From assembly GCA_021735445.1 (NCBI GenBank), contig JAIPHA010000005.1, forward strand, positions 1 through 63,561: a stretch of 63,561 bases of DNA. The letters are read 5' to 3'. The notes beneath the pieces were generated by a model. That model saw only the letters and a list, made by a program, of their open reading frames with translations, made no database searches and was not told where the DNA came from. Of this stretch, positions 3,441 through 34,606 are shown piece after piece. Both the position numbers and the translations under genes were made by a program. This stretch comes from Candidatus Omnitrophota bacterium. Its GTDB lineage: Bacteria > Omnitrophota > Gorgyraeia > Duberdicusellales > 4484-171. Every line of letters starts with the position of its first letter. The first letter of the stretch is position 1.

Positions 3441-3510
3441 AATTTTTACGGCAAGGCACAAGTATTTTAGTTTTTTTATCTTTATTTAATTAATTAAAAA
3501 GGAGGTGGTA

Positions 3511-4119
3511 ATGAAAGAACATCTAGATATTGGAAGGTGTTTTAATGATGCTTTAGAAATTTATAAGCAGCATTGGACGATGCTGGTTGTTTTACAGGTA
3601 ATTTTAGGGCTGCTAATAGTCGGAACTTTAGGTATCGTCGCTGGGCCTTTAGTTGCTAGCTATAACCTTGTATTAATTGAGCTGCTTCGTAAAAAAAAGG
3701 ATAATATTGAGATTGCGGATTTATTTGTTTTTTTTAATAGATTTTGGCCGCTGGCCGGTTTATTCTATCTTCAGCTGTTGATAGTGGCAGGAGGCTTTAT
3801 GTTATTTATTATCCCCGGAGTTATTTTTTCGGTAATGCTGCTTTATGTTTTCTATTTTGCTGCCGACAAGGGCGCCTCTCCTAAAGAAGCAATTAAAAAA
3901 AGCTGGAATATTGTATTGGCTAAAGGATTTTGGCCTAATTTTATTATTGGCATTTTAGCCGGAGCAATCATGACGGCAGTGCAGATGATTCCGTTGTTGG
4001 GGTCTATATTAGGGCTTTTTGCGGCGCCTTTTACCGCTTTATTAATTGCATCTGCTTATATACAACAAGTTGATTTAGGCCAGGAACAATTAGAAGAGTT
4101 GAATTTACAAAACGGCTAA
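3511..4119 (+). CDS. Integral membrane protein of unknown function (YciC/DUF975-like architecture)
   Basis: 4-5 TM helices; 'AIKKSWNIV' motif is typical of this group; GGAGGT RBS before ATG 3511. Confidence 0.65.
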   Translation: MKEHLDIGRCFNDALEIYKQHWTMLVVLQVILGLLIVGTLGIVAGPLVASYNLVLIELLRKKKDNIEIADLFVFFNRFWPLAGLFYLQLLIVAGGFMLFIIPGVIFSVMLLYVFYFAADKGASPKEAIKKSWNIVLAKGFWPNFIIGILAGAIMTAVQMIPLLGSILGLFAAPFTALLIASAYIQQVDLGQEQLEELNLQNG

Positions 4120-4138: not shown

Positions 4139-4411
4139 GTGGTTAATAAATTTATCAAAATTGTTTTAACTCTTTCTATTTTTATAGCCAGCATATCCCT
4201 ATTTTATAAATTCATTCTCGAACCTTTCCAAAAAGAAAATAAATTAGATCAATGTTTAAAGAGAGCAGAGGATCTTCATACTAAAAGATGGGATAATTCC
4301 TGTAAAACATTAGGGCAAAAGGCAGGTTGTGGTTTGGATAAAGATACCGCAACTGTCCATCTTCGGGTTTACGAGAGAGAAAAAGAAGAGTGTTATAAAA
4401 AATATAAATAA
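4139..4411 (+). CDS. Hypothetical single-pass membrane protein with 4 Cys
   Basis: GTG start, N-terminal TM segment, soluble part with four Cys. Confidence 0.55.
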   Translation: MVNKFIKIVLTLSIFIASISLFYKFILEPFQKENKLDQCLKRAEDLHTKRWDNSCKTLGQKAGCGLDKDTATVHLRVYEREKEECYKKYK

Positions 4412-4425
4412 AGAGCCGGCTATGT

Positions 4426-4454
4426 TTGAAGCTAAAAGAAAAATGTGATAAAAT
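4426..4454 (+). promoter_or_regulatory. Sigma70-type promoter with extended -10, for the small ORF at 4498
   Basis: TTGAAG (4426-4431), 17-bp spacer, TG-n-TAAAAT (4446-4454). Confidence 0.55.
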
Positions 4455-4497
4455 AAACAATATTAAGGGCAGAAAAATATCAAGGGGGGTGAATCAG

Positions 4498-4599
4498 ATG
4501 GCTAAACAAAAAAGATGCGCTGCTAAGACAAAATCAGGAAAAAAATGCAAGAATAAAGCAGCTGGTAGATCAAAGTTTTGCGCTGTTCACAAAAAATAA
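4498..4599 (+). CDS. 33-aa basic CCCH zinc-finger-like peptide MAKQKRCAAKTKSGKKCKNKAAGRSKFCAVHKK (not in the ORF track)
   Basis: Translated by hand. Strong RBS AAGGGGGGTG, C-x9-C-x10-C-x2-H pattern, own promoter and terminator. Confidence 0.8.
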   Translation: MAKQKRCAAKTKSGKKCKNKAAGRSKFCAVHKK

Positions 4600-4625
4600 T
4601 TATAATAGCTTCTTTTGTCATTTAT

Positions 4626-4655
4626 AAAAAGGGAGGGTGTCTACTCTCCCTTTTT
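4626..4655. terminator. Intrinsic terminator, potentially bidirectional
   Basis: AAAAA-GGGAGGGT-GTCT-ACTCTCCC-TTTTT. Confidence 0.8.
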
Positions 4656-4834
4656 GTGTTTTGGCAAAATCAAACCTCTTGACTAAAAGTTTGGTTTATG
4701 ATAATCTGAAATTGCTTGATTCTTAAGGATTTCTGAAGATTTTATCCAAAAATTTGTTGATTATAAAGCCTAAATTTATAGAAGTTAACGGGTTAAAGGA
4801 ACTCTAAATAATTGTATATTTATCAGGAGGAGAT

Positions 4835-5470
4835 ATGAAAAATAAAATACTTCTTATTTTAATTATATCTGTTTTTATTTTAAACGGTTGCGCTGTAGTT
4901 TTTCAGAAAGGCCGTCGCTCTGATATCGAAAAAATAGAAACTCTTAAAGAGGAGCTCCAAAGCCTAAAACATGCGCGGGAAGTTTTAAAGAGCCGTTTAG
5001 CCGAGGAGTTAAAAGATCAGCAAGTCCGCTTAAACATGGCAGAAAAAGGATTAGTAATTACTTTTGTGGCCGAGGTTCTTTTTAACTCCGGAAAAGCCAA
5101 AATAAGAGAGGACAGCAAACCGATACTTGATAAGGTAGCCAGGATTTTAAAAGAAGAGGTTCCCGATAATAATATCGGGGTAGAAGGCCATACAGATAAT
5201 ATCCCCATAAAACATTCAGGCTGGGATTCAAATTGGGAGCTTTCAGCTCAAAGAGCCTTAAGCGTTTTGTATTATCTAGAAAGTGAAGGAGTTAACCCCA
5301 GGAGGCTTTCTGCGATAGGCCACGGCCCTTATAAACCGGTTGCTTCTAATGATACAGAAAAAGGGCGGCAATTAAACCGGAGGGTAGAGATAGTGATTTT
5401 GCCTAAAGCAATGACCAAGATAGAACCCAAAGACACAGATACTGCTTATCCAGAGGAGGAGCTTAAATGA
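4835..5470 (+). CDS. OmpA/MotB-family peptidoglycan-binding lipoprotein with a coiled coil
   Basis: Lipobox LNGC; 'LFNSGKA', 'VEGHTDNIPI', 'NWELSAQRA' and 'NRRVEIVI' motifs. Confidence 0.85.
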   Translation: MKNKILLILIISVFILNGCAVVFQKGRRSDIEKIETLKEELQSLKHAREVLKSRLAEELKDQQVRLNMAEKGLVITFVAEVLFNSGKAKIREDSKPILDKVARILKEEVPDNNIGVEGHTDNIPIKHSGWDSNWELSAQRALSVLYYLESEGVNPRRLSAIGHGPYKPVASNDTEKGRQLNRRVEIVILPKAMTKIEPKDTDTAYPEEELK

Positions 5471-34333: not shown

Positions 34334-34606
34334 ATGAGAAAACGAGATATTGTTTTACGGATAAGCCAGGATACAGGCATAAAACAGGTAGTGGTTAAAG
34401 AGATAGTTCAGCATACCTTTGATTTTATTCTTGAATCCTTAAAAGAGGGCAAAAGAATTGAATTAAGAAACTTCGGTGTTTTTCAGATTAAACGGAGAAA
34501 GCCCAGGGTTGGGAGAAATCCTAAAACTGGCGAAGTGGTTCCTGTCCCGGAAAGAAAAGTAGTTACTTTTAAGCCCGGTTTGGATATGAAAAAATATATT
34601 CACTAG
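34334..34606 (+). CDS. HU/IHF-family DNA-binding protein
   Basis: 'RIELRNFGVF' and 'RVGRNPKTGEVV.VP....V.FKPG'. Confidence 0.95.
   Translation: MRKRDIVLRISQDTGIKQVVVKEIVQHTFDFILESLKEGKRIELRNFGVFQIKRRKPRVGRNPKTGEVVPVPERKVVTFKPGLDMKKYIH

What the first reader, a model, noticed from the sequence alone, without database searches (positions are those of the whole stretch)
4426..4655. Unannotated stand-alone transcription unit for a 33-aa basic CCCH zinc-finger peptide
Seen: promoter TTGAAG-17-TGnTAAAAT, RBS AAGGGGGGTG, ORF 4498-4599 (MAKQKRCAAKTKSGKKCKNKAAGRSKFCAVHKK: C-x9-C-x10-C-x2-H, 13 of 33 residues K/R, no acidic residue), then a strong terminator. It is below the ORF-track cutoff. The C..T..G..C...C..H pattern resembles, from memory, DUF5763 and HGGxSTG-type motifs, which are usually parts of larger proteins. 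Inference: a highly expressed minimal nucleic-acid-binding zinc micro-protein, for example nucleoid- or ribosome-associated.
Basis: partly seen in the sequence, partly recalled or inferred. Interest (0 to 1): 0.68.

Follow-up and report, generated by a model that had tools for sequence, protein, structure and literature searches.

The report
Tiny stand-alone zinc-finger protein gene
This is a real, strongly conserved gene for a 33-residue, very basic protein that is essentially one zinc-finger module; it belongs to an uncharacterised family of about 30-36-residue proteins scattered through anaerobic bacteria and archaea, and it most likely binds DNA or RNA.

Summary
ORF 4498-4599 (+) encodes MAKQKRCAAKTKSGKKCKNKAAGRSKFCAVHKK (C-x9-C-x10-C-x2-H, 13 K/R, no acidic residue). 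It sits between a promoter-like site, a very strong Shine-Dalgarno sequence (top 0.2% of the genome) and a 16-bp terminator hairpin.

It is a genuine gene. Four other genomes of the genus carry it, with dN/dS of 0.02-0.12, variable columns by codon position of 2/2/13, and conserved signals. One genus-mate lacks exactly this ~240-bp unit.

It belongs to a large unnamed family: at least 316 protein clusters, and 177 loci in species-representative genomes. These are mostly Nitrospirota/Thermodesulfovibrionales, plus Omnitrophota, Thermoplasmatota and other archaea, and Zixibacteria. Typical members are 30-36 aa, and C, C, C and H are invariant.

No Pfam or NCBIfam model reaches threshold. A profile-profile comparison ties it (98.6%) to the DUF5763 repeat module, which overlaps WRC, HGGxSTG and TRM13/Mcm10-type CCCH fingers.

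Function is inferred, not shown. It is probably a one-zinc knuckle that binds nucleic acid, more likely DNA. A core ribosomal role is unlikely, because only 6 of 301 Omnitrophota genomes carry it. "Unannotated" is only partly true: NCBI holds a 57-aa call with a wrong TTG start.

The parts
4426..4431 (+). -35-like hexamer TTGAAG
   Evidence: scan (9/12 with TG). TTTGAA is invariant in the 5 genus genomes.
4446..4454 (+). extended -10 TGaTAAAAT
   Evidence: TG.TAAAAT is conserved in G000, G006, G003 and G001, and a TGGTAAAAT is also present upstream in G002.
4482..4492 (+). Shine-Dalgarno AAGGGGGGTGA, 5 nt before the ATG
   Evidence: Duplex with the genome's own 16S 3' tail is -16.3 kcal/mol, top 0.2% of 920 long ORFs. 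Orthologues have AAGGAGGTGA.
4498..4599 (+). 33-codon ORF plus TAA: single-module CCCH (C-x9-C-x10-C-x2-H) zinc-finger micro-protein, 3.6 kDa, pI 10.6
   Evidence: dN/dS is 0.02-0.12. Variable columns by codon position are 2/2/13. The family has invariant C, C, C and H.
4626..4662 (+). intrinsic terminator: A-tract, GGGAGGG stem, 6-nt loop, CTCTCCC, T-run
   Evidence: -23.4 kcal/mol. The stem is kept with loop changes in G006, G003 and G001, and is replaced by a different hairpin in G002. It is present at the contig end in G005.

Best explanation
Window 4426-4662 is a self-contained, monocistronic transcription unit. Its 33-residue product is a single CCCH zinc-knuckle module. Cys7, Cys17, Cys28 and His31 would bind one Zn(II), which folds an otherwise core-less, lysine-rich peptide into a small beta-hairpin/loop knuckle. 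The folded, strongly cationic surface then binds a polyanion, most likely nucleic acid, and DNA more likely than RNA. The protein would act as an abundant accessory nucleoid or nucleic-acid-associated protein.

Shown here: the gene is real and under purifying selection; it has strong expression signals; it belongs to a widespread family of 30-36-aa proteins with invariant ligands; and it is homologous to the DUF5763/WRC-type CCCH module.

Inferred: zinc binding, the fold details, nucleic-acid binding and abundance. The gene behaves as a dispensable ~240-300-bp cassette that is gained, lost and duplicated as a unit.
For: Gene reality:
- Orthologues occur in 4 other genomes of the genus (79-100% identity).
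- Counts are 13 synonymous against 3 non-synonymous changes between G000 and G003, with dN/dS 0.02-0.12. Third-position bias is 2/2/13.
- The -35, extended -10, SD and terminator are conserved.

Family:
- 107 representatives in the 1.8-billion-protein library.
- 316 clusters of 31-100 aa.
- 177 confirmed loci in species-representative genomes.
- In the 80 best loci, 56 products are 30-36 aa, the module is always C-terminal, 75 start with ATG, and 91% have an SD duplex of -8 kcal/mol or stronger.
- Invariant residues are C7, A9, T11, G14, C17, K18, G23, K26, C28, H31 and K32.

Module homology:
- hhalign gives 98.6%, E 7.7e-16, to repeat modules. Half of those modules individually hit DUF5763.
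- Their parent proteins pass the Pfam thresholds for DUF5763, WRC and zf-TRM13_CCCH.

Zinc and DNA:
- The WRC domain has the identical CX9CX10CX2H spacing. It binds one Zn with nanomolar Kd, folds only with Zn, lacks a hydrophobic core and binds about 7 bp of dsDNA (bioRxiv 10.1101/2025.01.03.631214).
- Its DNA interface lies before Cys1, before Cys2 and next to His. Here the corresponding positions are K5-R6 and K15-K16, and K32-K33 follow the His; this mapping is my inference.
- The AF2 model has pLDDT 82 with almost no regular secondary structure, as reported for WRC.

Context of the module elsewhere:
- Family members carry Lys/Ala-rich histone-H1-like N-terminal tails in Zixibacteria, Calditrichota and Thermoplasmata. 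One member is fused to an AP_endonuc_2 domain.
- The module lies inside phage terminase small subunits (phrog_10899, E 1e-4), phage HNH endonucleases and a multi-HNH protein.

Cassette behaviour:
- G004 lacks exactly the unit.
- One Thermodesulfovibrionales genome has three near-identical cassettes of 300-900 bp.
Against: - There is no direct evidence of transcription, translation, zinc binding or any ligand.
- P0001 reaches no curated family threshold, and no solved structure matches by sequence or fold.
- The Trp of the WRC motif, implicated in DNA contact, is absent.
- Many two-module relatives carry N-terminal signal peptides (for example P0023, P0033, P0038, P0056). The module therefore also works outside the cytoplasm, and nucleic-acid binding cannot be universal for it.
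- Near-total sequence conservation across phyla is more than non-specific DNA coating would seem to need. It could point to one specific conserved partner.
- There is no conserved gene neighbour to hint at a pathway.
Confidence: 0.6

Rival explanations
1. The protein is an RNA- or ribosome-associated micro-protein. The zinc knuckle would bind rRNA, tRNA or mRNA, acting as an accessory ribosomal or hibernation-type factor or an RNA chaperone, rather than binding DNA.
For: - The most frequent weak Pfam hit of family members is the tRNA-methyltransferase TRM13 CCCH finger (33 of 56 members).
- Size, charge and a zinc site resemble the small zinc ribosomal proteins (my own knowledge).
- The very strong SD and multi-copy cassettes suggest high abundance.
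- Near-complete residue conservation across bacteria and archaea would fit a universal RNA target.
Against: - Distribution is very patchy: 6/301 Omnitrophota and 20/151 Thermodesulfovibrionales genomes. A genus-mate has the unit cleanly missing.
- The gene is not in any ribosomal or translation gene cluster.
- Fusions are to H1-like tails, HNH, terminase small subunit and an AP-endonuclease-type domain, all DNA contexts.
- The ligand spacing differs from bL36.
Confidence: 0.2
2. The protein is a protein-binding regulator. The knuckle would dock onto one conserved enzyme (for example RNA polymerase, a topoisomerase or a protease) and modulate it, in the way small zinc proteins such as YacG act on gyrase.
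For: - Almost every residue is conserved across phyla, more than charge-driven nucleic-acid binding would require.
- The gene is dispensable and sporadic, as expected of a modulator.
- Relatives exist with DnaJ or RING domains.
Against: - There is no conserved neighbour or co-occurring partner.
- The extreme positive charge and the Lys/Ala tail fusions point to polyanion binding.
- A core-less 25-residue knuckle needs many conserved residues merely to fold (WRC paper).
Confidence: 0.1
3. The unit is a selfish or mobile mini-cassette, or a phage-derived gene (for example a counter-defence or addiction function), rather than a housekeeping accessory protein.
For: - The ~240-bp unit shows clean presence/absence within one genus.
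- One genome carries 3-4 near-identical 300-900-bp copies.
- Distribution across bacteria and archaea at 60-80% identity suggests horizontal transfer.
- The module is found in phage proteins.
Against: - There are no stand-alone homologues in 50,697 phage or 72,556 plasmid records, and no PADLOC hit.
- The cassette GC (34%) is close to the genome's (36.7%).
- No terminal repeats, transposase or integrase neighbours recur.
- There is long-term purifying selection in a fixed syntenic site in the genus.
Confidence: 0.05
4. This is not a protein gene: either a chance ORF inside a small non-coding RNA, or a leader for the downstream OmpA-like gene.
For: The ORF is very short. The region is capped by a terminator, and weak sub-threshold Rfam hits overlap the hairpin.
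Against: - dN/dS is 0.02-0.12, and variable sites are concentrated at third codon positions.
- There are hundreds of protein-level homologues in unrelated genomic contexts.
- The downstream gene has its own conserved promoter-like block and keeps it in the genome that lacks the unit.
- The Rfam hits are far below gathering scores and cover only the terminator.
Confidence: 0.03

Closest known systems
DUF5763 (Pfam PF19067) repeat module
   Same: Same ligand pattern and the same conserved non-ligand residues (C-x-A-x-T-x-x-G-x-x-C-K-N-x-A-x-x-G-S-x-[FY]-C-x-x-H). Profile-profile probability is 98.6%. phmmer links P0001 to DUF5763-bearing proteins at E 1e-12 to 1e-8.
   Different: DUF5763 proteins found here carry 2-8 tandem modules, often with signal peptides or other domains. 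This protein is a single module that makes up the whole protein. It has a distinctive AKTK...GKSKFC...HKK signature and does not reach the Pfam threshold. DUF5763 itself has no known function and no paper in the library.
WRC domain (Pfam PF08879) of plant GRF transcription factors
   Same: Identical CX9CX10CX2H spacing, with a basic residue before the Cys ligands and [KQ]-[KY]-aromatic-C before Cys3. Repeat relatives pass the WRC threshold (P0004, 45 bits). WRC is experimentally a one-zinc, zinc-dependent, core-less fold that binds dsDNA.
   Different: There is no Trp-Arg-Cys motif (here Lys-Lys-Cys). The conserved Thr and Gly in the first loop are in a different register. WRC is a domain of large eukaryotic transcription factors, whereas this is a free-standing prokaryotic 33-mer. 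The Pfam threshold is not met.
HGGxSTG domain proteins (NCBIfam NF041373) and GvpO_arch_Nterm (NF045806)
   Same: The first 25 model positions (the CCCH knuckle) align to residues 7-31, at E 4e-4 and 1e-4.
   Different: Both hits are below the curated cut-offs (20 against 29 bits; 21.7 against 52 bits). The name-giving HGGxSTG continuation after the His is absent (the sequence ends HKK). There is no gas-vesicle context.
Zinc-finger micro-proteins of prokaryotes (C(P)XCG proteins of Haloferax volcanii, PMC11241148)
   Same: Stand-alone proteins under 70 aa that consist of essentially one zinc-binding module and are encoded by their own small genes.
   Different: They use a different motif (paired C(P)XCG zinc-ribbon knuckles, against C-x9-C-x10-C-x2-H) and are not homologous. 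This family is smaller (30-36 aa) and far more basic.
zf-TRM13_CCCH (PF11722) and Mcm10/zf-primase (PF09329) CCCH fingers
   Same: Weak recurrent hits across the family (33 and 22 of 56 members, best E 1e-3 and 2e-4). Both are nucleic-acid-binding CCCH fingers with similar loop lengths.
   Different: All hits are below threshold. Those fingers are parts of large enzymes or replication factors.

Membership tests
Pfam DUF5763 (PF19067) | Score at or above the Pfam gathering threshold (26.3 bits) | tested here: not met
   There is no DUF5763 hit for P0001 even at E<=10. Only 3 of 56 stand-alone family members hit at E<=1, with a best E of 0.071.
Pfam DUF5763 (PF19067) | Module pattern C-x9-C-x10-C-x2-H with conserved Thr (+4) and Gly (+7) after Cys1 and an aromatic residue before Cys3 | tested here: met
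   P0001 has C7, T11, G14, C17, F27, C28 and H31. The same columns are invariant or nearly invariant in the repeat-module alignment A4.
Pfam DUF5763 (PF19067) | Homology to bona fide DUF5763 modules | tested here: met
   hhalign of A3 against A4 gives probability 98.6%, E 7.7e-16, over 29 columns. 23 of 46 A4 modules hit DUF5763 at E<=0.01 on their own, and the parent proteins pass the threshold.
NCBIfam HGG_STG (NF041373) | Score at or above the curated cut-off (29 bits) | tested here: not met
   20 bits, E 4e-4, model positions 1-25 of 38 only.
NCBIfam HGG_STG (NF041373) | HGGxSTG motif following the zinc-ligand His | tested here: not met
   The sequence ends ...C-A-V-H-K-K-stop. The family consensus is HKKK.
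WRC domain (PF08879) | CX9CX10CX2H ligand spacing | tested here: met
   The spacing for WRC is as stated in the papers found and in the WRC structure preprint.
WRC domain (PF08879) | Trp-Arg-Cys motif at the second ligand, and the Pfam threshold (28.6 bits) | tested here: not met
   Residues 15-17 are K-K-C. There is no WRC hit for P0001, and 2 of 56 family members hit at E<=1.
WRC domain (PF08879) | Binds one Zn(II), folds on zinc binding and binds dsDNA | not testable with these tools
   This needs peptide biochemistry. Only an AF2 model (pLDDT 82, little regular secondary structure) is available.
Ribosomal protein bL36 (small CCCH zinc ribosomal protein) | C-x2-C-x12-C-x4-H spacing and near-universal presence in the lineage | tested here: not met
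   The spacing here is x9/x10/x2. The family is found in 6 of 301 Omnitrophota genomes. The bL36 spacing is from my own knowledge.
C(P)XCG zinc-finger micro-proteins (Haloferax type) | Two or more C(P)XCG motifs | tested here: not met
   There is no CxxC-type knuckle in P0001. The family definition is from PMC11241148.
Stand-alone AKTK/KSKFC CCCH micro-protein family (unnamed, defined here by alignment A3) | 30-45 aa, a single C-terminal module, consensus C-A-A-K-T-K-x-G-K-x-C-K-N-x-A-x-G-[KR]-S-K-[FY]-C-A-x-H-K-K, and its own SD | tested here: met
   P0001 is 58-82% identical to the 55 other members. The profile match in its own genome has E 4.9e-16.

The most novel reading that the evidence does not exclude
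The 30-36-aa AKTK/KSKFC proteins would be the smallest autonomous zinc-finger proteins with a dedicated cellular target. They would form a pan-domain, horizontally spread mini-gene cassette of about 300 bp (promoter, SD, ORF, terminator). Its product would recognise one specific, universally conserved nucleic-acid or protein structure (for example a defined site on the ribosome, RNA polymerase or a particular DNA structure) rather than coating DNA non-specifically. This would explain why nearly every residue is conserved between bacteria and archaea, and why cells amplify the cassette.
Probability: 0.2. Interest if true: 0.7.

Novelty: new variant of a known kind. Interest (0 to 1): 0.5.

Why it matters
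If the inference holds, this is a minimal natural zinc finger of about 25 structured residues that works as a complete protein. It is conserved from Omnitrophota and Nitrospirota to Thermoplasmatota archaea. It would put a first testable function on the DUF5763/HGGxSTG module, which has no literature, and would link it to the plant WRC DNA-binding domain. The family is also a concrete case of systematic mis-annotation of micro-proteins: gene callers either miss it or extend it upstream across its own SD and promoter. The peptide is only 33 residues long, so it can be made synthetically. Zinc binding, folding and ligand preference can therefore be tested directly without cultivating the host.

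Tried and rejected
- **Longer 57-aa ORF from TTG 4426 (the form in NCBI nr).** Rejected. The extension covers the -35 and -10 elements, and it is not conserved: stops lie 4 codons upstream of the ATG in G001 and G003. Family-wide, the "extensions" are translated SD sequences such as KGG or GGE directly before Met.
- **Second copy in the own genome (C15:24473).** Rejected. It lies antisense inside a murE-like gene.
- **Weak tblastn hits in G047, G012 and G007.** Rejected. They have no intact CCCH ORF.
- **PDB searches.** Sequence search with the single protein, sequence search with the profile, and Foldseek with the AF2 model all returned nothing. A 33-residue model is probably too short for Foldseek.
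- **Conserved gene neighbourhood across 83 loci.** None is universal; synteny is lineage-specific only.
- **Rfam.** Only sub-threshold hits on the terminator hairpin.
- **Defence, phage and plasmid origin.** No PADLOC hit, no plasmid hit, and only module-level hits inside larger phage proteins.
- **Replacement for HU.** Rejected; HU is present at window 34334-34600.
- **Literature.** No papers mention DUF5763, PF19067 or HGGxSTG.
- **The search for homologous proteins with the 33-mer.** I worked around this with the 57-aa form and an alignment.

Full report
**1. The observation**

The sequence is as described.
- A TTGAAG hexamer is at 4426-4431. It is followed by a 17-nt spacer and TGaTAAAAT at 4446-4454.
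- The purine-rich AAGGGGGGTGA is at 4482-4492, with ATG at 4498.
- A 33-codon frame ends at TAA 4597-4599.
- An A-tract/GGGAGGG...CTCTCCC/T-tract hairpin is at 4626-4662.
- The product is MAKQKRCAAKTKSGKKCKNKAAGRSKFCAVHKK. It has 11 Lys, 2 Arg and no Asp or Glu, and the spacing is C7-x9-C17-x10-C28-x2-H31. Mass is 3.6 kDa and pI 10.6.

A promoter-like match alone means little in this 37% GC genome: there are 22 sites in 2 kb, against 6.7 in shuffles. The other two signals are exceptional. The SD duplex with the genome's own 16S tail (GGATCACCTCCTTT on contig C8) is -16.3 kcal/mol. Only 0.2% of 920 long ORFs are as strong. The terminator region folds at -23.4 kcal/mol with a 16-bp stem.

**2. 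It is a real gene**

The peptide is single-copy in its 1.17-Mb genome. A second weak hit is antisense in a murE-like gene. Four other genomes of the same genus carry it at 79-100% identity.

In the DNA alignment, TTTGAA, TGnTAAAAT, the SD (AAGGAGGTGA in two genomes), the ORF and the hairpin are conserved, while the spacers diverge. In G002 a different hairpin takes the terminator's place.

The substitution pattern is that of a coding sequence:
- G000 against G003 shows 13 synonymous and 3 non-synonymous differences.
- Pairwise dN/dS is 0.02-0.12.
- Variable alignment columns fall 2/2/13 on codon positions 1/2/3 in the four closest genomes, and 7/6/19 in all five.
- All four putative ligands are kept.

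The longer 57-aa reading from the TTG at 4426 is the form present in NCBI nr. It is not supported. In G001 and G003 a stop lies four codons upstream of the ATG, and the extension would run across the promoter elements. The 33-aa products themselves are not in the 15-billion-protein collection. The locus is therefore mis-started in this genome, and its exact 33-aa product is not on record for the genus-mates.

**3. Presence and absence as a unit**

In genus-mate G004 the flanking genes are adjacent. These are the 90-aa protein upstream and the OmpA-family lipoprotein downstream. The alignment shows that exactly the stretch from just after the upstream stop to just before the downstream gene's promoter-like block is missing. 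That stretch is about 240 bp and runs from promoter to terminator.

In G005 the contig ends inside the terminator hairpin, so its apparent absence there is an assembly break. In G002 the gene sits in another context.

**4. The family**

A full HMMER scan of 1.8 billion representatives gave 107 hits at E<1e-3. They fall into two kinds.
- Proteins with 2-8 tandem copies of the module. Examples include a 947-aa protein with HNH domains, a DnaJ fusion, and many short proteins with a signal peptide plus two modules.
- Stand-alone proteins.

A profile of stand-alone members retrieved 316 clusters of 31-100 aa. All carry no name or are called "hypothetical protein", and none has a precomputed Pfam domain.

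A scan of one genome per species found 177 confirmed loci. Of the best 80:
- 46 are Nitrospirota, mostly Thermodesulfovibrionales/-ia and Nitrospiraceae.
- 11 are archaeal: Thermoplasmata, Methanomassiliicoccales, Methanobacteriota and Methanosarcinales.
- 6 are Omnitrophota.
- 5 are Zixibacteria.
- The rest are scattered.

The window's genus-mates are Omnitrophota MAGs from "Tobar" lake samples.

I re-derived the starts by choosing the best SD in each locus.
- 56 of 80 products are 30-36 aa, and 36 aa is the mode.
- 75 use ATG.
- 91% have an SD duplex of -8 kcal/mol or stronger, with a median of -11.6.
- The 90 nt downstream fold better than shuffles, with a median z of -1.95.

Published longer forms typically read ...KGG-x-M or ...GGE-x-M before the true Met. 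In other words, gene callers translated the SD.

The consensus is MAxAKKVRCAAKTKEGKxCKNxAxGKSKFCASHKKK. Invariant residues are C, A, T, G, C, K, G, K, C, H and K.

The distribution is sparse:
- 6 of 301 Omnitrophota genomes.
- 20 of 151 genomes of the Thermodesulfovibrionales-type order, with up to 4 copies.

In one complete genome (OY970295.1), three copies about 1 Mb apart share only a 295-900-bp cassette at 94-97% identity. The shared part comprises the promoter region, SD, ORF and tail. No gene neighbour recurs across lineages.

**5. What the module is**

P0001 reaches no curated threshold.
- Pfam reports only zf-TRM13_CCCH at E 0.14.
- NCBIfam reports HGG_STG at E 4e-4 (20 against 29 bits) and GvpO_arch_Nterm at E 1e-4 (21.7 against 52 bits).
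- The same is true of the whole stand-alone family.

The multi-module relatives do pass thresholds for DUF5763 (up to 59 bits), WRC (45 bits), zf-TRM13_CCCH, zf-C3Hc3H and zf-primase. They also pass for HGG_STG and GvpO_arch_Nterm.

A profile of 56 stand-alone proteins aligns to a profile of 46 excised repeat modules with 98.6% probability (E 7.7e-16). Half of those modules hit DUF5763 on their own. Formal membership by the curated models fails.

No paper in the library mentions DUF5763, PF19067 or HGGxSTG.

**6. How it most likely works**

The only experimentally studied relative with the identical CX9CX10CX2H spacing is the WRC domain of plant GRF factors. A 2025 preprint (10.1101/2025.01.03.631214) reports the following:
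- It binds one Zn(II), with a Kd of about 14 nM.
- It folds only when zinc is bound.
- It forms a beta-hairpin, a loop and a short helix, with no hydrophobic core.
- It binds about 7 bp of dsDNA, and binding is abolished by zinc removal.
- The DNA interface is formed by residues just before Cys1, the three residues up to Cys2, and the residue before His.

I mapped this onto P0001 by ligand register; the mapping is my inference. Those positions are K5-R6, G14-K15-K16 and V30, and K32-K33 follow the His. The basic character is kept, but the Trp is not.

The AlphaFold2 model built on the family alignment is confident for so small a peptide (pLDDT 82). It shows only isolated beta-bridges, in line with a metal-organised knuckle.

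Independent hints for DNA as the ligand come from the company the module keeps:
- Lys/Ala-rich, histone-H1-like N-terminal tails of 20-100 residues in the Zixibacteria, Calditrichota, FCB-group and Thermoplasmata members. One has a weak HC2 hit.
- A fusion to an AP_endonuc_2 TIM-barrel domain in one archaeal MAG.
- Presence inside phage terminase small subunits (phrog_10899, E 1e-4; mycobacteriophage Patience gp3) and at the N-terminus of phage HNH endonucleases.

I therefore propose a Zn-folded cationic knuckle that binds nucleic acid. DNA is more likely than RNA. It would be made in quantity from a compact, strong expression cassette.

**7. Caveats and rivals**

Nothing here shows transcription, translation, metal binding or a ligand.

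Many two-module relatives have signal peptides. The module is therefore not restricted to cytoplasmic nucleic acids.

The conservation of nearly every residue from bacteria to archaea may reflect folding constraints of a core-less knuckle, or it may reflect a specific conserved partner.

The rivals fare as follows.
- A core ribosomal role is unlikely, given the patchiness and the clean loss in a genus-mate. An accessory RNA or ribosome factor remains possible (about 0.2).
- A protein-binding modulator is possible (about 0.1).
- A selfish or phage-derived cassette is possible but weakly supported (about 0.05). There are no stand-alone copies in phage or plasmid records, no defence-family hit, and the GC content is host-like.
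- The protein is not a substitute for HU, which the genome encodes at window 34334-34600.
- A non-coding reading is effectively excluded.

**8. Novelty and verdict**

The module superfamily is catalogued, but only as a DUF. The stand-alone 30-36-aa AKTK/KSKFC family is unnamed, below all curated thresholds, mis-started or missed by annotation, and unstudied. I rate it a new variant of a known kind and of moderate interest. The gene is certainly real, the family is broad and cleanly defined, and the function can be tested directly with a synthetic peptide. The mechanism, however, is so far inference by homology.

An earlier first-stage note from another genome (e1-5252247) describes the same kind of hidden 30-aa CCCH peptide. 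That fits the family's spread but is not independent evidence.

Noticed in passing
window 4669-4720: A block just downstream of the terminator is almost invariant in all five genus genomes compared, including G004, which lacks the micro-gene. The block reads TCAAACCTCTTGACTAAAAGTTTGGTTTATGATAATCTGAAATTGC. It looks like the promoter of the OmpA-family lipoprotein gene at 4835-5470 (TTGACT, a 17-nt spacer, then TAATCT preceded by TG). The consensus scan did not list it.
   Followed up: partly
window 4139-4411: The upstream 90-aa ORF has an N-terminal hydrophobic helix and 4 Cys, and ends ...ECYKKYK. It is conserved and syntenic in the genus but matches no Pfam family. Together with the 204-aa multi-pass membrane protein at 3505-4119 (weak UPF0259 hit) it forms the left flank.
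   Followed up: partly
L035:3883-4176, L048:3797-4694, L049:3798-4692 (OY970295.1, Thermodesulfovibrionales MAG chromosome): Three copies of the micro-gene lie about 1 Mb apart and share only a 295-900-bp cassette at 94-97% identity. Similar pairs are seen in two other Nitrospirota MAGs (L087/L089, L027/L031). The mechanism of duplication is unknown.
   Followed up: partly
L062, L074, L080, L083, L086, L088, L090 (Zixibacteria, Calditrichota, FCB-group and unclassified bacterial MAGs); L019, L064, L071 (Thermoplasmata-type archaea): Family members with 20-100-residue Lys/Ala-rich (AKKK)n N-terminal tails resembling histone H1 or chlamydial Hc2. In the Zixibacteria-type loci the gene sits beside a large Lon-like AAA+ protein gene and an ~1150-aa gene in a conserved arrangement.
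   Followed up: partly
L055:3287-4117: A Methanobacteriota MAG encodes a fusion of an AP_endonuc_2 (xylose-isomerase-like TIM barrel) domain, an acidic linker, a Lys/Ala-rich stretch and one CCCH module. My chosen start probably truncates the N-terminus.
   Followed up: no
P0023, P0033, P0038, P0039, P0056, P0065, P0069, P0072, P0097, P0099 (one search hits): A recurrent architecture of signal peptide plus two CCCH modules (80-105 aa). It implies exported zinc-knuckle proteins, whose ligand outside the cell is unexplained.
   Followed up: no
cluster 3: The 90%-identity cluster of the 36-aa protein P0177 lists a 2056-aa Salmonella ShdA autotransporter (P0224) as a member. This is almost certainly an indexing artefact of the collection, not biology.
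   Followed up: no
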